From positions 1 through 44,609 of IMG/VR virus record IMGVR_UViG_3300045988_011059: 44,609 bases of DNA; one strand, written 5' to 3'. The stretch comes from a virus. Taxonomy: Duplodnaviria; Heunggongvirae; Uroviricota; Caudoviricetes. Made by a program: the position numbers and the translations under genes. Of the stretch, positions 5,637 through 41,036 are shown piece after piece; the first letter of the stretch is position 1; each line of letters opens with the position of its first letter. The notes below the pieces were generated by a model. The model made no database searches. It was not told where the DNA came from and saw only the letters and a program-made list of their open reading frames with translations.

Positions 5637-5657
5637 AGCCCCGAAAGGGGCTTTCTT
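5637..5657 (+). terminator. Stem-loop / weak terminator
   Basis: GCCCC-GAAA-GGGGC followed by TTTCTT. Confidence 0.45.
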
Positions 5658-7200: not shown

Positions 7201-7203
7201 ACT

Positions 7204-7225
7204 AAGGCCCCGAAAGGGGCTTTTT
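7204..7225 (+). terminator. Rho-independent terminator
   Basis: AAGGCCCCGAAAGGGGCTTTTT hairpin plus T-run. Confidence 0.7.
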
Positions 7226-7254
7226 AGCGCCTGTTATTATTCCAGTTATTCCTC

Positions 7255-7305
7255 CTAATTGTAAATGTTGGAATAAACTATTCGAATAGTTGACTTTTCA
7301 CTAAA
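7255..7305 (+). promoter_or_regulatory. Putative regulated promoter: ATGTTGGAATAA box, palindrome ACTATTCGAATAGT, then TTGACT
   Basis: Read directly; ATGTTGGAATAA recurs at 8045-8056 upstream of the scaffold gene. Confidence 0.35.
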
Positions 7306-7542
7306 AATGTGATAAGCTCCACCTGAGCTTGTGAAGTATGAACAAGCGACCGCGGCGCGGGCAGGTAACGGAGCGGGACGTAAGTCCTGAGTGTAGTTAC
7401 GCTGACGCGTTCGGAAGGGCCATACTCTATTGCTTGTGTAAAAAGGAACGGGTTTACTGAGATTACGCCGTTTCTATGTTTAAATGATAAGGACTAGCGC
7501 CCCGCTTTATGGCGGGGCTTTACTTATCGAGAAAGGAGAAAC

Positions 7543-7929
7543 ATGAATCTTAAAGCAACTGTCGTAGCAGGGGCATGTTTCATCATCCTGTTATATGCCC
7601 ACGGCTACTATCAATACCGCATCGGCTGGAACGAAGGCCGGGCGAATCTCGTTTCGCAGCAACAGCAGAAAGCACAGGCTGCGTTAGCGAAGAAAACACA
7701 ACGGCAGCAGCAGGATGAATCGAAGGCCGCAGCCGCTGACAACGAAGGCAAGACGAAATCAGAGGTGATCACCCGTGAAGTCGTTAAGTACATTAAAACG
7801 CCTGGTCGCAGCGTGTGCACTTTTGACCCTGAGCGCGTGCAGCTCAAGTCCCGCGCCGTCGCAAATGCCAATTCCATCCCCGGATACGACGATGATGCAG
7901 CCGCCGTGCAAACTGGCGGCACCAAGTAG
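7543..7929 (+). CDS. Rz-like inner-membrane spanin
   Basis: N-terminal transmembrane helix (VVAGACFIILLYA), Q/A-rich coiled-coil region, with an o-spanin embedded in the +1 frame. Confidence 0.7.
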   Translation: MNLKATVVAGACFIILLYAHGYYQYRIGWNEGRANLVSQQQQKAQAALAKKTQRQQQDESKAAAADNEGKTKSEVITREVVKYIKTPGRSVCTFDPERVQLKSRAVANANSIPGYDDDAAAVQTGGTK

Positions 7930-9874: not shown

Positions 9875-9935
9875 GGTTAAGCTATAATCGAGAGGGACTT
9901 CGGTCCCTCTTTTCATTTACTAAGAGGATTCCTAA

Positions 9936-13963: not shown

Positions 13964-13988
13964 AAGGCCCCGAAAGGGGCCTTTTCTT
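13964..13988. terminator. Bidirectional rho-independent terminator
   Basis: AAGGCCCCGAAAGGGGCCTTTT between convergent genes. Confidence 0.7.
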
Positions 13989-16756: not shown

Positions 16757-16785
16757 ATAGTACCCTATTATATCGGGGTGTGCAA
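16757..16785 (-). promoter_or_regulatory. Early-type promoter TTGCAC-N17-TACTAT (minus strand)
   Basis: Reverse complement reads TTGCACACCCCGATATAATAGGGTACTATTCAC, near-identical over about 33 nt to the promoter at 39230-39258. Confidence 0.55.
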
Positions 16786-26735: not shown

Positions 26736-26740
26736 AACTA

Positions 26741-26762
26741 AGGCCCCAAACGGGGCCTTTTC
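26741..26762. terminator. Bidirectional rho-independent terminator
   Basis: AGGCCCC-AAAC-GGGGCCTTTT between convergent operons. Confidence 0.7.
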
Positions 26763-38392: not shown

Positions 38393-38626
38393 TTATTCCA
38401 GGTCTTCTAAAGTAGCGGTCATTCCGCGAACTTCAGCAACAGCACTATATTTCCCACCAACATTTTTCACGACACCAGATTTAACCAGCACCTTCAACGA
38501 CCCTTCAATAATGGCGGAACTATAGTACCTAAAATAACTACGACGCAAGTCCATAACGCTGCACGACCCTTTTTTACGTGTTAGCGAAACGACAGCCGTA
38601 AATACCCGGGACTGGAACTCGGTCAT
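38393..38626 (-). CDS. Hypothetical protein (77 aa)
   Basis: ORF track; ATGA-coupled to the upstream HTH gene. Confidence 0.5.
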   Translation of the reverse strand: MTEFQSRVFTAVVSLTRKKGSCSVMDLRRSYFRYYSSAIIEGSLKVLVKSGVVKNVGGKYSAVAEVRGMTATLEDLE

Positions 38627-38793
38627 TTTACATTCTCCTTAATCCACGCTTCCACTTTCTCCGGGTCAAACGTACCTGGCTGCCGGCGGCCCATAATGCG
38701 GGTACAACAATCAGGGAACTTCCCACTCTTTAACCAGTTATTAAGCGTACGACGAGTAACCCCAATACGCTCAGCTACCTCATTCTGCGTCAT
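38623..38793 (-). CDS. Small HTH DNA-binding protein (AlpA/excisionase-like)
   Basis: MTQNEVAERIGVTRRTLNNWLKSGKFP HTH; ATG 38793 lies downstream of the predicted promoter, the track TTG start does not. Confidence 0.6.
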   Translation of the reverse strand: MTQNEVAERIGVTRRTLNNWLKSGKFPDCCTRIMGRRQPGTFDPEKVEAWIKENVK

Positions 38794-38825
38794 TCTCAAA
38801 CCCTCATTATCAGTTAACGAAACCA

Positions 38826-38854
38826 AGTATACATTGCGAATAATGGGAAATCAA
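38826..38854 (-). promoter_or_regulatory. Sigma70-like promoter TTGATT-N17-TATACT (minus strand)
   Basis: Read on the reverse complement; sits just upstream of the first leftward gene. Confidence 0.5.
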
Positions 38855-39150
38855 ACATAATCGCACCTATTGACATTATGAAAATCTTCGTTTAAGGTGC
38901 TTCTATATCTTAGTTACTTTGATTCCTGTTCACCTTGTAATACCCGCTTGAAACGCAGCGGCGCACCAGCGCCAGCGAAGTGTTAAGCGGCAGATTACTG
39001 AACATAAGAATTATCGTAACTTTCCTTCCTTAGTATCTCCGGTTGCCCTGGGCAAGCTCTATTCTCATCGGCAGCATATCTCTTAAGTATATGATAATTA
39101 AAAGTTTCTATAGTTGCCGTAAGCAAGGTAGAGAGTACTTCACTCCGCTG

Positions 39151-39170
39151 GGGTGGGCTAACGCCCACCC
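39151..39170. other. Perfect GC-rich hairpin GGGTGGGC-TAAC-GCCCACCC
   Basis: 8-bp inverted repeat read directly, inside the 465-bp divergent control region. Confidence 0.6.
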
Positions 39171-39229
39171 ACTGCGTTGCGTACTCTTTTAAGAAACGAA
39201 CGAATCACAACGGCAACGTAACTATTCTC

Positions 39230-39258
39230 TTGCACACCCCAACATAATAGGATACTAT
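39230..39258 (+). promoter_or_regulatory. Early-type promoter TTGCAC-N17-TACTAT
   Basis: TTGCAC 39230-39235, TACTAT 39253-39258; flanked by ACTATTC motifs. Confidence 0.55.
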
Positions 39259-39292
39259 TCACTTATCGAAACGAGACATAAGGAATTTAGAA

Positions 39293-39511
39293 ATGAACAA
39301 AGCGACCGCAAGCGTAGTTTCCGCAATAAAAGAAGTTTACGGCATCGATATCTCAGAGCGAGTAATCATCGGGAACAAACGAAACTTCTTTACGTTCGAC
39401 ACCGACGGAATGGATGAAAATGATTTTATTAACGTACAACGTTTCGCCAACGGTAAAGGGCTTCGTAACGAGCCTGCGGGTTACAAGAAATTCGCTATCT
39501 ACTTTAAATAA
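39293..39511 (+). CDS. Hypothetical protein (72 aa)
   Basis: ORF track; AAGGA RBS; AT-rich. Confidence 0.6.
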   Translation: MNKATASVVSAIKEVYGIDISERVIIGNKRNFFTFDTDGMDENDFINVQRFANGKGLRNEPAGYKKFAIYFK

Positions 39512-40725: not shown

Positions 40726-40763
40726 TGAGTGACTTACGCTGCTACACAGCAGCGTATCATTTT
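40726..40763 (+). terminator. Rho-independent terminator
   Basis: ACGCTGCT-ACAC-AGCAGCGT hairpin followed by a T-rich run. Confidence 0.6.
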
Positions 40764-41007: not shown

Positions 41008-41036
41008 TTGCACGCTGAAATAGAATAGGCTACTAT
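41008..41036 (+). promoter_or_regulatory. Early-type promoter TTGCAC-N17-TACTAT
   Basis: TTGCAC 41008-41013, TACTAT 41031-41036; same architecture as 39230-39258. Confidence 0.55.

What the first reader, a model, noticed from the sequence alone, without database searches (positions are those of the whole stretch)
38855..39229. Large divergent early control region with a perfect GC hairpin: candidate origin or small RNA locus
The 465-bp interval between the leftward and rightward operons has divergent promoters at its edges (38826-38854 minus; 39230-39258 plus) and an additional plus-strand TTGACA box at 38870-38875 that would transcribe into the non-coding interior. That interior contains a perfect 8-bp GC hairpin (39151-39170) and AT-rich flanks. 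The layout fits either a replication origin next to the primase-helicase gene or an early non-coding RNA.
Basis: partly seen in the sequence, partly recalled or inferred. Interest (0 to 1): 0.4.

Follow-up and report, generated by a model that had tools for sequence, protein, structure and literature searches.

The report
Unannotated structured early RNA cassette
The "empty" 500-bp gap between the two early operons of this Kagunavirus phage most likely encodes an unannotated, highly folded non-coding RNA with its own promoter and terminator hairpin. The RNA is conserved across hundreds of E. coli and Salmonella phages, and the gap shows none of the usual features of a replication origin.

Summary
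The interval has divergent promoters, an extra rightward TTGACA box and a perfect 8-bp GC hairpin.

The window is a Kagunavirus (Guernseyvirinae) genome. The interior is conserved in about 450 phage records and is usually left unannotated.

From TTGACA (38870) plus TAAGGT (38893), a roughly 285-nt RNA is predicted with three parts:
- **Long hairpin (38912-39021):** sequence diverges between genera (47% identity) but pairing is kept. 97.7% of cells pair, 20 of 43 pairs carry compensatory changes, and slid controls pair at 35-42%.
- **Core (39022-39095):** 82% identical between genera, against 59% for the adjacent primase-helicase gene.
- **Exchangeable 3' module:**

G·U outnumbers A·C 127:17, so the + strand is the one that folds.

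I found no iterons, no DnaA-box excess, no conserved ORF, no Rfam match and no literature.

Other Kagunavirus lineages carry different promoter-plus-structured-RNA bodies at this site. One of these bodies has a paralogue in this window at 7290-7525, where it forms a terminated leader in front of the spanin and capsid genes.

Verdict: the RNA locus is supported and the origin is not. The mechanism is unresolved. I favour a cis-acting terminated or antiterminated leader (lambda PR'-6S-like or put-like), with a trans-acting sRNA as the main rival.

The parts
38623..38793 (-). First gene of the leftward (replication) operon. It encodes a 56-aa HTH_17/Xis-like DNA-binding protein.
   Evidence: Pfam HTH_17 at E 2e-7. 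Relatives annotate the 171-nt gene from this ATG. It is 86% identical to phage Jersey.
38826..38854 (-). Leftward sigma-70 promoter PL: TTGATT, 17-bp spacer, TATACT.
   Evidence: Found by the consensus scan. The same site is found in K1ind1 and Jersey. The flanking stretch ATAATGGGAAATCAA is invariant in 26 relatives.
38870..38898 (+). Rightward 'class A' promoter PR1: -35 TTGACA (38870-75), 17-bp spacer, -10 TAAGGT (38893-98). The inferred start site is about 38905.
   Evidence: CACCTATTGACATT and T-A-A-G-N-T are invariant across the Kagunavirus and Jerseyvirus copies. Phage Jersey's record annotates a promoter here. The pattern TTGACW-N17-TAAGNT occurs only here and at 7290 in the window. 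Transcription itself is inferred, not shown.
38912..39021 (+). Long irregular RNA hairpin of 110 nt. Helices: P1 38912-17/39016-21; P2 38920-25/39008-13; P3 38927-32/38999-39004; P4 38937-41/38994-98; P5 38944-51/38983-90; apical P6 38958-64/38969-76.
   Evidence: MFE folds of 20 relatives give the same architecture despite different sequences. Within Kagunavirus, 97% of cells pair, against 33-45% for slid controls. On the covariance-model alignment of 35 distinct sequences, 97.7% pair and 20 of 43 pairs have changes on both sides. The hairpin is only 47% identical to Jersey.
39022..39095 (+). Nearly invariant core. It comprises a pyrimidine-rich single strand UUUCCUUCCUUAGUAUCUCCGG (39022-42); helix P7, UUGCC 39043-47 with GGCAG 39070-74 (alternative: GGCAA 39051-55); the motif CUCUAUU (39057-63); and a repeated YUUA(A)GUAUCU.
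   Evidence: 82% identical to Jersey, against 59% for the neighbouring primase-helicase DNA. P7 is kept in 98.9% of cells, with one-sided G·U/G-C changes only. Similar GGGC..(C)UCUAUU motifs occur in the other RNA body types. That resemblance was judged by eye and is tentative.
39096..39217 (+). Exchangeable 3' module of the 'window type'. It is closed by GUUGCCGU (39113-20) pairing with ACGGCAAC (39210-17).
   Evidence: Present in 32 phage records at 94.6-99.1% identity, combined with three different upstream RNA bodies. Other phages carry K1ind1-type, Jersey-type or RP180-type modules at the same place, each with its own GC hairpin.
39130..39190 (+). Compound stem-loop. The outer stem is AGAGAGUAC/GUACUCUUU. 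A UUUU tract follows at 39187-90. It is a candidate intrinsic terminator or attenuator for the PR1 transcript.
   Evidence: Folds. The equivalent K1ind1-type hairpin GGGCAGGCuuagGGCCUGCCC+UUUAGUU is scored terminator-like and shows G·U and compensatory variants. The window's own hairpin is NOT flagged by the simple terminator scan, so its efficiency is uncertain.
39230..39258 (+). 'Class B' promoter PR2: TTGCAC, 17-bp spacer, TACTAT. It is followed by the leader UCACUUAUCGAAACGAGACA, an RBS and the first early gene (ATG at 39293).
   Evidence: Three copies lie in the window (39230+, 41008+, 16785-), against 0.41 expected. It is conserved in relatives.
7290..7525 (+). Paralogous cassette in the late region. 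It has a class A promoter TTGACT-17-(TGa)TAAGCT (7290-7318), a structured 'type-2' RNA, the terminator GCCCCGCuuuaUGGCGGGGC+UUUACUU (7499-7518 plus tail), and then the RBS and ATG of the spanin gene at 7543.
   Evidence: 79% identical (E 1e-24) to the RNA body that occupies the finding's position in phage fPoEco01. Terminator-like site found by scan. 98% identical to a Salmonella Jerseyvirus, against 78-87% for the flanking genes. 7 of 33 pairs are compensatory across 6 sequences.

Best explanation
The interval is an unannotated early transcription unit, not an origin.

Host sigma-70 RNA polymerase starts at the conserved class A promoter (TTGACA 38870 / TAAGGT 38893) and makes a non-coding RNA of roughly 285 nt. 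The RNA has three parts:
- a 110-nt long hairpin whose shape, but not sequence, is conserved;
- a 75-nt core whose sequence is nearly invariant;

It belongs to a set of interchangeable promoter / structured-RNA / terminator cassettes in Guernseyvirinae. I recognise four body types at this site. One of them is also present at 7290-7525, in front of the spanin, scaffold and capsid genes.

I think the most likely mode of action is in cis. The nascent RNA would be a terminated leader that decides whether polymerase started at class A promoters reads through the hairpin and the further terminators of the roughly 30-kb rightward arm. The layout resembles lambda PR'-6S RNA-tR'. The RNA dependence would resemble HK022 put.

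What is shown: the promoter motifs, the structure with covariation, which strand folds, the modularity and the paralogue.

What is inferred: that the region is transcribed, where the 3' end lies, and the whole cis-antitermination step.

My confidence that this is a functional RNA element on the + strand is about 0.85. My confidence in the specific cis-leader mechanism is about 0.35-0.4. The figure given for this explanation is the second one.
For: **Identity and conservation**
- The window is a Kagunavirus.
- The interval is conserved in 448 phage records across E. coli and Salmonella phages.
- Most records listed carry no annotation under the match.

**Structure**
- The + strand folds with z = -5.4; the - strand gives z = -3.3.
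- Within the genus, 97.0% of cells pair, 5 pairs are compensatory, and 0 of 500 shuffles reach the observed values.
- Across genera, 97.7% pair and 20 of 43 pairs are compensatory, covering 198 cells. Slid controls pair at 35-42% with at most 6 compensatory pairs.
- G·U cells outnumber A·C cells 127 to 17.

**Divergence pattern**
- Compared with phage Jersey, the hairpin is 47% identical and the core 82%, while the primase-helicase gene DNA is 59%.

**Promoter**
- The promoter motifs are invariant.
- The same unusual -10 (TAAGNT) heads the other cassettes.

**Arguments for action in cis**
- Some phages carry the same RNA type at two promoter-proximal sites in one genome (2 places in fPoEco01, phiEc4 and RP180). 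This resembles nutL/nutR and putL/putR.
- At 7.3 kb the upstream operon ends in what looks like an intrinsic terminator (GGCCCCGAAAGGGGC followed by TTTTT, 7207-7225; read from the sequence, the scan flags only the reverse strand).
- No other + strand promoter is detected before the spanin and capsid genes. Those genes start 25 nt after the cassette's terminator stem. The RNA there must therefore be read through.
- Several intrinsic-terminator-like hairpins lie between co-oriented genes of the rightward arm, at 40735, 5637, 7207, 7499 and 9890.
- No Q/N-type antiterminator is annotated or recognised.
- The Jersey-type 3' module has no good terminator, so in those phages the RNA is a leader.
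Against: - I have no transcript data of any kind.
- The PR1 -10 matches the consensus at only 3 of 6 positions.
- The window's own hairpin fails a simple terminator scan, and its U tract varies among relatives.
- At the early locus a separate strong promoter (PR2) sits downstream of the cassette. The early genes therefore do not need the leader, which fits a free-standing RNA gene as well as, or better than, a cis element.
- RNA-only antitermination from a constitutive promoter would give no obvious temporal control.
- The element has no sequence or size resemblance to put (about 70 nt, two stem-loops; PMC9378689).
- The covariation counts across genera come from a model-fitted alignment of related sequences, which inflates them. 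The unfitted within-genus MAFFT alignment gives 5 compensatory pairs.
- The motif shared between RNA types (GGGC..CUCUAUU) was judged by eye.
Confidence: 0.4

Rival explanations
1. It is a free-standing, trans-acting small RNA gene. The roughly 285-nt RNA would be released at the hairpin terminator. It would act on host or phage mRNAs, or titrate a protein, through the invariant single-stranded pyrimidine-rich stretch (UUUCCUUCCUUAGUAUCU, which resembles an anti-Shine-Dalgarno sequence).
For: - The unit has its own promoter and a terminator-like 3' stem-loop.
- An independent promoter (PR2) for the downstream genes follows immediately.
- The core is invariant and predicted to be unpaired.
- Bodies and 3' modules are exchanged without regard to the neighbouring genes.
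- The K1ind1-type module has a canonical terminator.
- There is precedent in phage lambda: Hfq-bound sRNAs, including the terminated 194-nt 6S RNA (bioRxiv 10.1101/2024.10.31.621285).
Against: - I found no complementarity above chance to the phage's own genome, to the leader of the first early gene or to the paralogous RNA.
- Host targets could not be searched.
- The U tracts are short.
- The Jersey-type module lacks a terminator.
- At 7.3 kb the sister cassette must be read through to express the capsid genes.
- Two copies of one RNA type in the same genome are redundant for a trans-acting RNA.
Confidence: 0.3
2. It is an RNA processing or stability element. The long hairpin would be an RNase III-type site or a protective 5' structure in a long leader of the early-right mRNA, as with the RNase III sites of the T7 early region.
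For: - The irregular hairpin of about 45 base pairs starts 7 nt from the inferred 5' end.
- The arrangement of tandem early promoters in a long non-coding leader resembles T7 A1-A3/R0.3. This comparison comes from my own knowledge and was not tested.
Against: - It does not explain the invariant core.
- It does not explain the exchangeable 3' modules with terminators.
- It does not explain the paralogous cassette.
- PR2 transcripts would lack the element.
Confidence: 0.1
3. It is a replication origin. One version is transcription-primed: the PR1 transcript would be used as a primer, as at the T7 primary origin or with ColE1 RNA II. The other version is a +-strand ssDNA hairpin recognised by the adjacent primase-helicase.
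For: - The interval sits at the head of the replication operon (primase-helicase, Pol A, SSB).
- A promoter reads into a moderately AT-rich stretch, 39083-39112.
- The cumulative GC skew has its minimum here.
- G·T pairs are also tolerated in ssDNA hairpins.
Against: - There are no iterons or tandem repeats.
- There is no excess of DnaA boxes.
- The single P4-type TGTTCACC octamer is at chance level.
- The skew minimum coincides with the switch in gene orientation.
- A sister cassette with the same promoter type lies among the structural genes, 31 kb away from the replication genes.
- Body types are swapped between phages that keep the same replication proteins.
Confidence: 0.08
4. It is protein-coding. 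The candidates are a minus-strand ORF of up to about 110 codons, annotated as a hypothetical protein in some relatives (e.g. Bas73_0055), or a short plus-strand ORF (39043-39192).
For: - The minus-strand frame is open for 97-112 codons in some Kagunaviruses (L001, L002, L060).
- Gene callers annotate it.
Against: - The frame is broken into 2-3 pieces in the window, in L015 and in all Jersey-type phages. This happens even though the core DNA is 82% conserved.
- The hairpin lengths differ by non-multiples of 3: 111, 109, 105 and 106 nt.
- The pattern of G·U and compensatory changes is an RNA-structure signature.
- The plus-strand ORF starts at a TTG with no SD. That start is CTG in many Jersey-type phages.
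Confidence: 0.03

Closest known systems
Phage lambda late leader: PR' promoter, 194-nt 6S RNA, terminator tR' (read through when Q acts)
   Same: - A host-type promoter fires into a non-coding transcript of about 200-290 nt.
- That transcript ends at an intrinsic terminator placed immediately upstream of co-oriented genes.
- At the window's sister cassette (7290-7525) the genes that follow are lysis (spanin) and head genes, as in lambda.
- The lambda 6S RNA is also a stable, Hfq-associated species of unknown role (10.1101/2024.10.31.621285).
   Different: - No Q homologue is annotated or recognised.
- No conserved promoter-proximal -10-like pause element was seen.
- Here the RNA's secondary structure is itself under selection.
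- At the early locus a second promoter follows the terminator.
- There is no sequence similarity to lambda 6S.
HK022 putL/putR cis-acting antiterminator RNAs
   Same: - They are structured nascent RNAs just downstream of early sigma-70 promoters and upstream of terminators.
- Two related copies can occur per genome at different operon starts.
- No dedicated phage antiterminator protein is known (PMC9378689).
   Different: - put is about 70 nt with two stem-loops (PMC9378689). This RNA has a 110-nt single hairpin plus a 75-nt core.
- There is no sequence similarity.
- Binding to RNA polymerase and terminator read-through are untested here.
Phage-encoded trans-acting sRNAs (lambda PreS/LPR1; prophage DicF and StxS)
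   Same: - They are short non-coding transcripts from phage genomes with a terminator hairpin.
- They carry a conserved unpaired segment that could serve as a seed.
   Different: - This RNA is about 285 nt and dominated by one long helix.
- No target or chaperone is known.
- The U tail is short.
- The host phage is virulent.
Transcription-activated origins (T7 primary origin with promoters 1.1A/1.1B; ColE1 RNA II)
   Same: - A promoter next to replication genes reads into non-coding DNA.
- ColE1 RNA II is a structured transcript of several hundred nucleotides.
   Different: - The RNA has no G-rich segment, and no R-loop or RNase H motif was identified.
- No iterons are present.
- The same kind of cassette occurs away from the replication genes.
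- These comparisons come from my own knowledge.

Membership tests
Any described RNA family (Rfam 15) | A covariance-model match at or near the family's gathering score | tested here: not met
   There were no matches at gathering score over the whole window. The only hit with E<=10 in 38700-39400 is a chance snoRNA match at 17 bits against a threshold of 70. Six relatives carrying the other body and module types gave no hit at E<=1.
Structured functional RNA (generic) | Secondary structure is conserved through compensatory substitutions, on one strand | tested here: met
   Searches give 97.0% and 97.7% of cells paired, with 5 and 20 pairs changed on both sides. Slid controls pair at 33-45%. G·U outnumbers A·C 127:17. 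Caveat: the sequences are related, and the cross-genus alignment was fitted to the model.
Sigma-70 transcription unit | -35 and -10 hexamers at 16-18 bp spacing, conserved in relatives | tested here: inconclusive
   TTGACA-17-TAAGGT has a perfect -35 but a -10 matching at 3 of 6 positions, so it fails the scan. The motif is invariant in relatives. The sister cassettes have TTGACT-17-TGnTAAGCT with an extended -10. No transcript data are available.
   The inner 8-bp hairpin is followed by ACUGCGUU, so it is not flagged. The compound stem 39130-39186 is followed by UUUU. The positional equivalent in K1ind1-type phages is flagged: 9 pairs, tail TTTAGTTACC. The Jersey-type module has none.
HK022 put antiterminator RNA | About 70 nt, two stem-loops, downstream of early promoters, with related copies in one genome (PMC9378689) | tested here: not met
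   The position and the paired copies resemble put. The size and architecture differ: a 110-nt hairpin plus core. There is no sequence similarity.
HK022 put antiterminator RNA | Binds the RNAP beta' zinc-binding domain and suppresses terminators without protein factors | not testable with these tools
   This needs in vitro transcription or rpoC (ZBD) mutant hosts.
Lambda-type Q antitermination leader (PR'-6S-tR') | A promoter, a short terminated non-coding transcript, then late (lysis and head) genes with no intervening promoter | tested here: met
   This is met at the sister cassette 7290-7543. At the finding's own locus it is met only in part, because PR2 intervenes.
Lambda-type Q antitermination leader (PR'-6S-tR') | A Q-family protein encoded by the phage | tested here: not met
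   No antiterminator is annotated in the fully annotated relative Bas73. No such PHROG or Pfam hit was found among the flanking and early-right proteins scanned. Most early proteins are of unknown function, so an analogue is not excluded.
N/nut or rrn-type boxA element | A conserved boxA core GCUCUU(U)A (consensus from my own knowledge) | tested here: not met
   The window has GCUCUAUUC (39056-64). Jersey-type phages have GCUAUAUUC, and the other bodies have AGUCUAUUG or CGUCUAUUU. The GCUCUU core is therefore not conserved.
Iteron or DnaA-type replication origin | Clustered direct repeats and/or DnaA boxes next to an AT-rich unwinding element | tested here: not met
   No repeat family with more than 2 copies, and no tandem repeat, lies in 38600-39500. 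DnaA-like sites number 59 against 67.6 expected. TGTTCACC is at chance level.
Replication origin (functional definition) | Replication initiates here in vivo | not testable with these tools
   This needs marker-frequency analysis or 2D gels.
Protein-coding gene | An open frame and start codon conserved across relatives | tested here: not met
   No ORF is shared between the Kagunavirus and Jerseyvirus copies, although the core is 82% identical at the DNA level.

The most novel reading that the evidence does not exclude
Guernseyvirinae encode no RNA polymerase and no recognisable Q or N protein. They might time their late genes with a family of exchangeable cis-acting leader RNAs. Polymerases that start at the two class A promoters (38870 and 7290) would fold these RNAs. 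Then, alone (as with put) or with an unknown early protein, they would become resistant to the cassette's own terminator and to the internal terminators of the roughly 30-kb rightward arm. That arm carries the lysis, packaging and head genes. This would be a new structural class of RNA antiterminator, present in hundreds of therapeutic-candidate phages.
Probability: 0.2. Interest if true: 0.8.

Novelty: new member of a known kind. Interest (0 to 1): 0.55.

Why it matters
**Practical relevance.** Kagunavirus and Jerseyvirus phages are among the most frequently isolated E. coli and Salmonella phages for therapy and biocontrol. They are also proposed as small chassis for engineering (BASEL II preprint, 10.1101/2024.09.12.612763). 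Despite this, their gene-expression programme is essentially unknown.

**Annotation.** This interval is either left blank or filled with spurious 'hypothetical protein' calls in public records. Recognising it as a conserved structured RNA cassette, with a sister cassette in front of the capsid and lysis genes, has three consequences:
- it corrects the annotation;
- it warns engineers not to treat the gap as a neutral insertion site;
- it gives a concrete, testable handle on how a virulent siphovirus that relies only on host polymerase controls read-through into its late genes.

**RNA biology.** The interval adds at least two RNA families supported by covariation that are absent from Rfam.

Tried and rejected
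1. **tRNA, tmRNA or a known RNA family.** ARAGORN found none and Rfam gave no match.
2. **Iterons or P4-type origin repeats.** The octamer TGTTCACC at 38927 caught my eye, but 3 copies per genome against 1.4 expected is chance. No repeat families were found.
3. **DnaA boxes.** They are not enriched.
4. **boxA/nut reading of GCUCUAUUC after a small hairpin.** The core is not conserved in Jersey-type phages or in the other bodies.
5. **A conserved small ORF on either strand.** Rejected.
6. **The 17-mer TTCCTTCCTWAGTATCT as a wider motif.** The 10 extra viral hits were unrelated. Where a start codon was visible nearby, they read as reverse-strand ribosome-binding sites.
7. **Base-pairing of the RNA with other RNAs.** I tested the phage genome, the leader and RBS of the first early gene in five lineages and the paralogous 7.3-kb RNA. 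None exceeded shuffled controls.
8. **Host-target search.** It is not feasible with the BLAST tools for seeds of 10-15 nt, so it was not attempted.
9. **Covariance model R1 against the other body types (K1G, fPoEco01, Bas70).** There were no hits even with filters off. They are separate families, not divergent copies detectable by this model.
The 32 copies are 95-99% identical and uninformative.
11. **Literature.** Searches for Guernseyvirinae, Kagunavirus or Jerseyvirinae combined with transcriptome, sRNA or origin terms returned nothing on this region. The one Kagunavirus transcriptome paper works at gene level only.
12. **Bacterial genomes.** The scan gave one hit, in a Taishania assembly. 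It is a Jersey-type phage sequence, probably contamination.
Full report
**What the window is.** The window is a complete genome of the Kagunavirus type (subfamily Guernseyvirinae). A megablast of 38600-39520 hits 341 phage records, all Escherichia, Salmonella, Shigella or Klebsiella phages of the Kagunavirus or Jerseyvirus type.

The finding lies between two operons:
- **Leftward replication operon:** a 56-aa HTH_17 protein at 38623-38793, a 77-aa protein, and a 755-aa helicase-primase. DUF2800, an SSB, Pol A, VRR-NUC and an SNF2 helicase follow further on.
- **Rightward arm:** small early genes, then holin and endolysin, then, across the window ends, terminase, portal, head and tail genes.

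**Checking the observation.** Four refinements apply.
- Relatives start the HTH gene at the ATG at 38793, so the gap is 499 bp.
- The TTGACA box at 38870 is followed after 17 bp by a weak -10, TAAGGT. A plain consensus scan therefore misses it.
- The 39230 promoter (TTGCAC-17-TACTAT) is also missed by that scan. It recurs at 41008 (+) and 16785 (-) with an extended consensus.
- The perfect hairpin 39151-39170 is the tip of a longer compound stem-loop, 39130-39189.

Perfect GC-rich 8-bp hairpins occur 4 times in the genome, against about 1 in shuffles. Two of the others sit right behind genes, as terminators do.

**Conservation.** A sensitive blastn of the gap finds 448 phage records: 326 Salmonella and 104 Escherichia. 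In most of the records listed, nothing is annotated under the match. Some carry gene-caller fillers such as Bas73_0055.

I collected 36 distinct copies from GenBank, IMG/VR and metagenomes. The alignment resolves into modules:
- back-to-back promoters, with ATAATGGGAAATCAA-N9-CACCTATTGACATT invariant;
- a region that differs strongly between lineages;
- a nearly invariant block;
- a variable module with a GC hairpin;
- the second rightward promoter.

Against phage Jersey, the identities are 59% (helicase-primase DNA), 67% (77-aa gene), 86% (HTH gene), 47% (variable region), 82% (invariant block) and 28% (3' module).

**The variable region is a conserved RNA hairpin.** Independent MFE folds of 20 copies give the same 100-111-nt irregular hairpin, built from different sequences. 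Examples:
- P2 is UGAUUC/GAAUUA in Kagunavirus and UAAGUUU/AAACUUA in Jerseyvirus.
- P3 is UGUUCA/UGAACA in one and GUUUCA/UGAAAC in the other.
- The last pair of P4 is U-A, A-U or G-C.
- P5 is CCGCUUGA/UUAAGCGG, UGUUUAACCC/GGGUUAAACA or CUUAGCG/CGUUAAG.

On an ordinary MAFFT alignment of 21 Kagunavirus copies, my structure pairs 97.0% of cells, against 33-45% when partners are slid. Five pairs change on both sides, and no shuffle of 500 reaches the observed covariation.

A covariance model built from that alignment recovers the Jerseyvirus copies at 70-85 bits. On the resulting alignment of 35 distinct sequences:
- 97.7% of cells pair;
- 20 of 43 pairs carry changes on both sides (198 cells);
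- slid controls give 35-42% paired and at most 6 such pairs.

That alignment is fitted to the model and the sequences are related, so the numbers are generous. The within-genus result does not depend on the fitting.

G·U pairs outnumber A·C 127 to 17. The + strand therefore folds, meaning an RNA made by rightward transcription. A + strand of ssDNA is less likely but would fit the same count. The + strand also folds better than the - strand, with z = -5.4 against -3.3.

**No protein explains the conservation.** A minus-strand frame stays open for 97-112 codons in a few Kagunaviruses. It is broken in the window, in other Kagunaviruses and in all Jersey-type phages. Hairpin lengths differ by non-multiples of three. 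The plus-strand TTG ORF loses its start in many Jersey-type phages.

**No known RNA family or literature.**
- Rfam gives nothing for the window or for six relatives.
- ARAGORN finds no tRNA.
- Full-text searches found no description of this region. The one Kagunavirus transcriptome paper (PMC12645636) reports gene-level counts only.

**The origin reading.**
- The interval has no iterons or tandem repeats.
- DnaA-box-like sites are not enriched.
- The lone P4-type octamer is at chance level.
- The GC-skew minimum simply marks the switch in gene orientation.

**Modularity.** Other Kagunavirus lineages have, at exactly this place, a different rightward promoter and a different structured body:
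- the fPoEco01/SHAK7858/RP180 type (TTGACT-17-TGcTAAGCT);
- the K1G/K1H type (TTGACA-16-TAAAAT);
- the Bas70/71 type (TTGAAA-18-TATAAT).

Model R1 does not detect these bodies.

The 3' modules are shuffled independently.
- K1ind1-type, Jersey-type and RP180-type modules replace it elsewhere.
- The Kagunavirus-type modules (window, K1ind1, RP180) begin at UGCCGUA.. and end at ..ACGGCAAC. The Jersey type keeps only a shorter UGCC...GGCA closure. Each module has its own GC hairpin.
- The K1ind1-type hairpin scores as an intrinsic terminator and shows G·U and compensatory variants.
- The Jersey type has no convincing terminator.

**A sister cassette in this genome.** The fPoEco01-type body has a paralogue in 181 phage records, often as a second copy. 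In the window it lies at 7302-7432, at 79% identity and E 1e-24.

The layout there reads as follows:
- the terminator-like hairpin of the upstream operon (7207-7225);
- a promoter TTGACT-17-(TGa)TAAGCT (7290-7318);
- a structured RNA;
- a terminator GCCCCGC-uuua-UGGCGGGGC+UUUACUU (7499-7518);
- 25 nt later, the spanin gene, followed by the scaffold and major capsid genes.

This RNA is 98% identical between the window and a Salmonella Jerseyvirus, while the flanking genes are 78-87% identical. Across early-locus and late-locus copies, 7 of 33 predicted pairs are compensatory.

The pattern TTGACW-N17-TAAGNT occurs only at these two cassettes in the window. I derived the pattern from them, so the match is descriptive rather than a test.

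**What this implies.** A promoter / structured-RNA / terminator unit that also occurs among the structural genes is hard to reconcile with an origin.

At 7.3 kb no other + strand promoter is detected before the most highly needed late genes. The RNA there must therefore be a leader whose terminator is read through. That is the layout of lambda PR'-6S RNA-tR' (10.1101/2024.10.31.621285 for 6S; the Q mechanism is from my own knowledge).

Three further points bear on this:
- The rightward arm contains several more terminator-like hairpins between co-oriented genes, at 40735, 5637 and 9890.
- No Q/N-type protein is annotated or recognised.
- Some genomes carry the same RNA type at both sites, as with nutL/nutR or putL/putR (PMC9378689).

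On that basis I favour a cis-acting terminated or antiterminated leader.

The counter-arguments are real:
- At the finding's own locus a strong independent promoter follows the cassette.
- The window's terminator is unconventional.
- The RNA looks nothing like put.
- There is no transcript evidence at all.

A free-standing trans-acting sRNA is nearly as likely, and the two readings are not exclusive. My searches for complementary targets in the phage were negative, and host targets could not be searched.

The element is a new structured-RNA family of a known general kind (phage leader or small RNA), with unusual cassette-like modularity. I put about 0.85 on the claim that it is a functional + strand RNA, and about 0.4 on any specific mechanism. 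The interest is moderate. It would be high if the antitermination model holds.

Noticed in passing
window 7201-7542: A second non-coding cassette lies in the late region. It has a class A promoter (7290-7318), a structured 'type-2' RNA, and a terminator (7499-7518) directly in front of the spanin gene. It is 98% identical to a Salmonella Jerseyvirus, while the flanking genes are 78-87% identical. It is a paralogue of the RNA that replaces the finding's RNA in phage fPoEco01. It deserves its own finding.
   Followed up: partly
window 39230-39258 (+), 41008-41036 (+), 16757-16785 (-): A three-copy 'class B' promoter family, cTTGCAC-N10-ATAATAGGnTACTAT-TCA, with a shared transcribed leader (ACTTATCGA...). 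It heads the early-right genes, a second early block and the leftward 14.1-16.7 kb cassette. A similar ACTTATCGAGA follows the 7499 terminator.
   Followed up: partly
window 40735-40756, 5637-5652, 7207-7225, 9890-9911, 13964-13983, 26740-26759: Strong intrinsic-terminator-like hairpins lie between co-oriented genes of the rightward arm, several built on the motif GGCCCC-GAAA-GGGGCC. Examples sit after the portal and major capsid genes. No promoter was detected behind them. This suggests partial termination or an antitermination mechanism.
   Followed up: no
L007 (Salmonella phage KE04) 1740-2100; L005 (Kenya-K4): Some Jerseyviruses carry a tandem arrangement: K1ind1-type 3' module, then a Kagunavirus-like PR2, then a Jersey-type module, then a Jersey PR2. 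This records a cassette insertion by recombination at the short shared sequence GAAATGCCG.
   Followed up: partly
L004/L006 (Jersey-type) about 1570-1600, equivalent to window about 38899-38917: Jersey-type copies have an extra palindrome, GUAACUUCAAGUUAC, just after the start site. It could pair with the 5' arm of P1, giving an alternative early fold. It is absent from Kagunavirus copies.
   Followed up: no
GenBank records PQ850603 (Bas73_0055), PP856710 (CDS0039-0042), PQ850619/PQ850615 (Bas70_0055/56, Bas71_0054/55), OR594183 (SHAK7858_0054/55), OM272052 (fBCEco01_09): Short 'hypothetical protein' CDSs are called inside the structured-RNA intervals. They are not conserved between lineages and are probably gene-caller artefacts.
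   Followed up: partly
L072 (OR594183.1, vB_EcoM_SHAK7858); L076 (NC_048181.1, RP180): There are record-level oddities. SHAK7858 is filed under Autographiviridae/Kayfunavirus and named 'EcoM', yet it has a Kagunavirus early region. RP180's 'DNA-binding protein' ORF44 is annotated on the strand opposite to the HTH gene that the sequence shows.
   Followed up: no
L075 (NZ_JACVEL010000022.1, Taishania pollutisoli scaffold22, 18,987 bp) 2134-2365: A Bacteroidota genome assembly contains a scaffold with the Jersey-type promoter pair and RNA (80.5 bits with model R1). It is most likely Salmonella-phage contamination of the assembly, not a prophage.
   Followed up: partly
window 38393-38626 (-): The 77-aa protein between the HTH and the helicase-primase (PHROG 5169, unknown function) is variously labelled 'replication protein' or 'uvsX-like' in relatives, with no visible support. 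Other Kagunavirus lineages have an unrelated 96-aa protein there.
   Followed up: no
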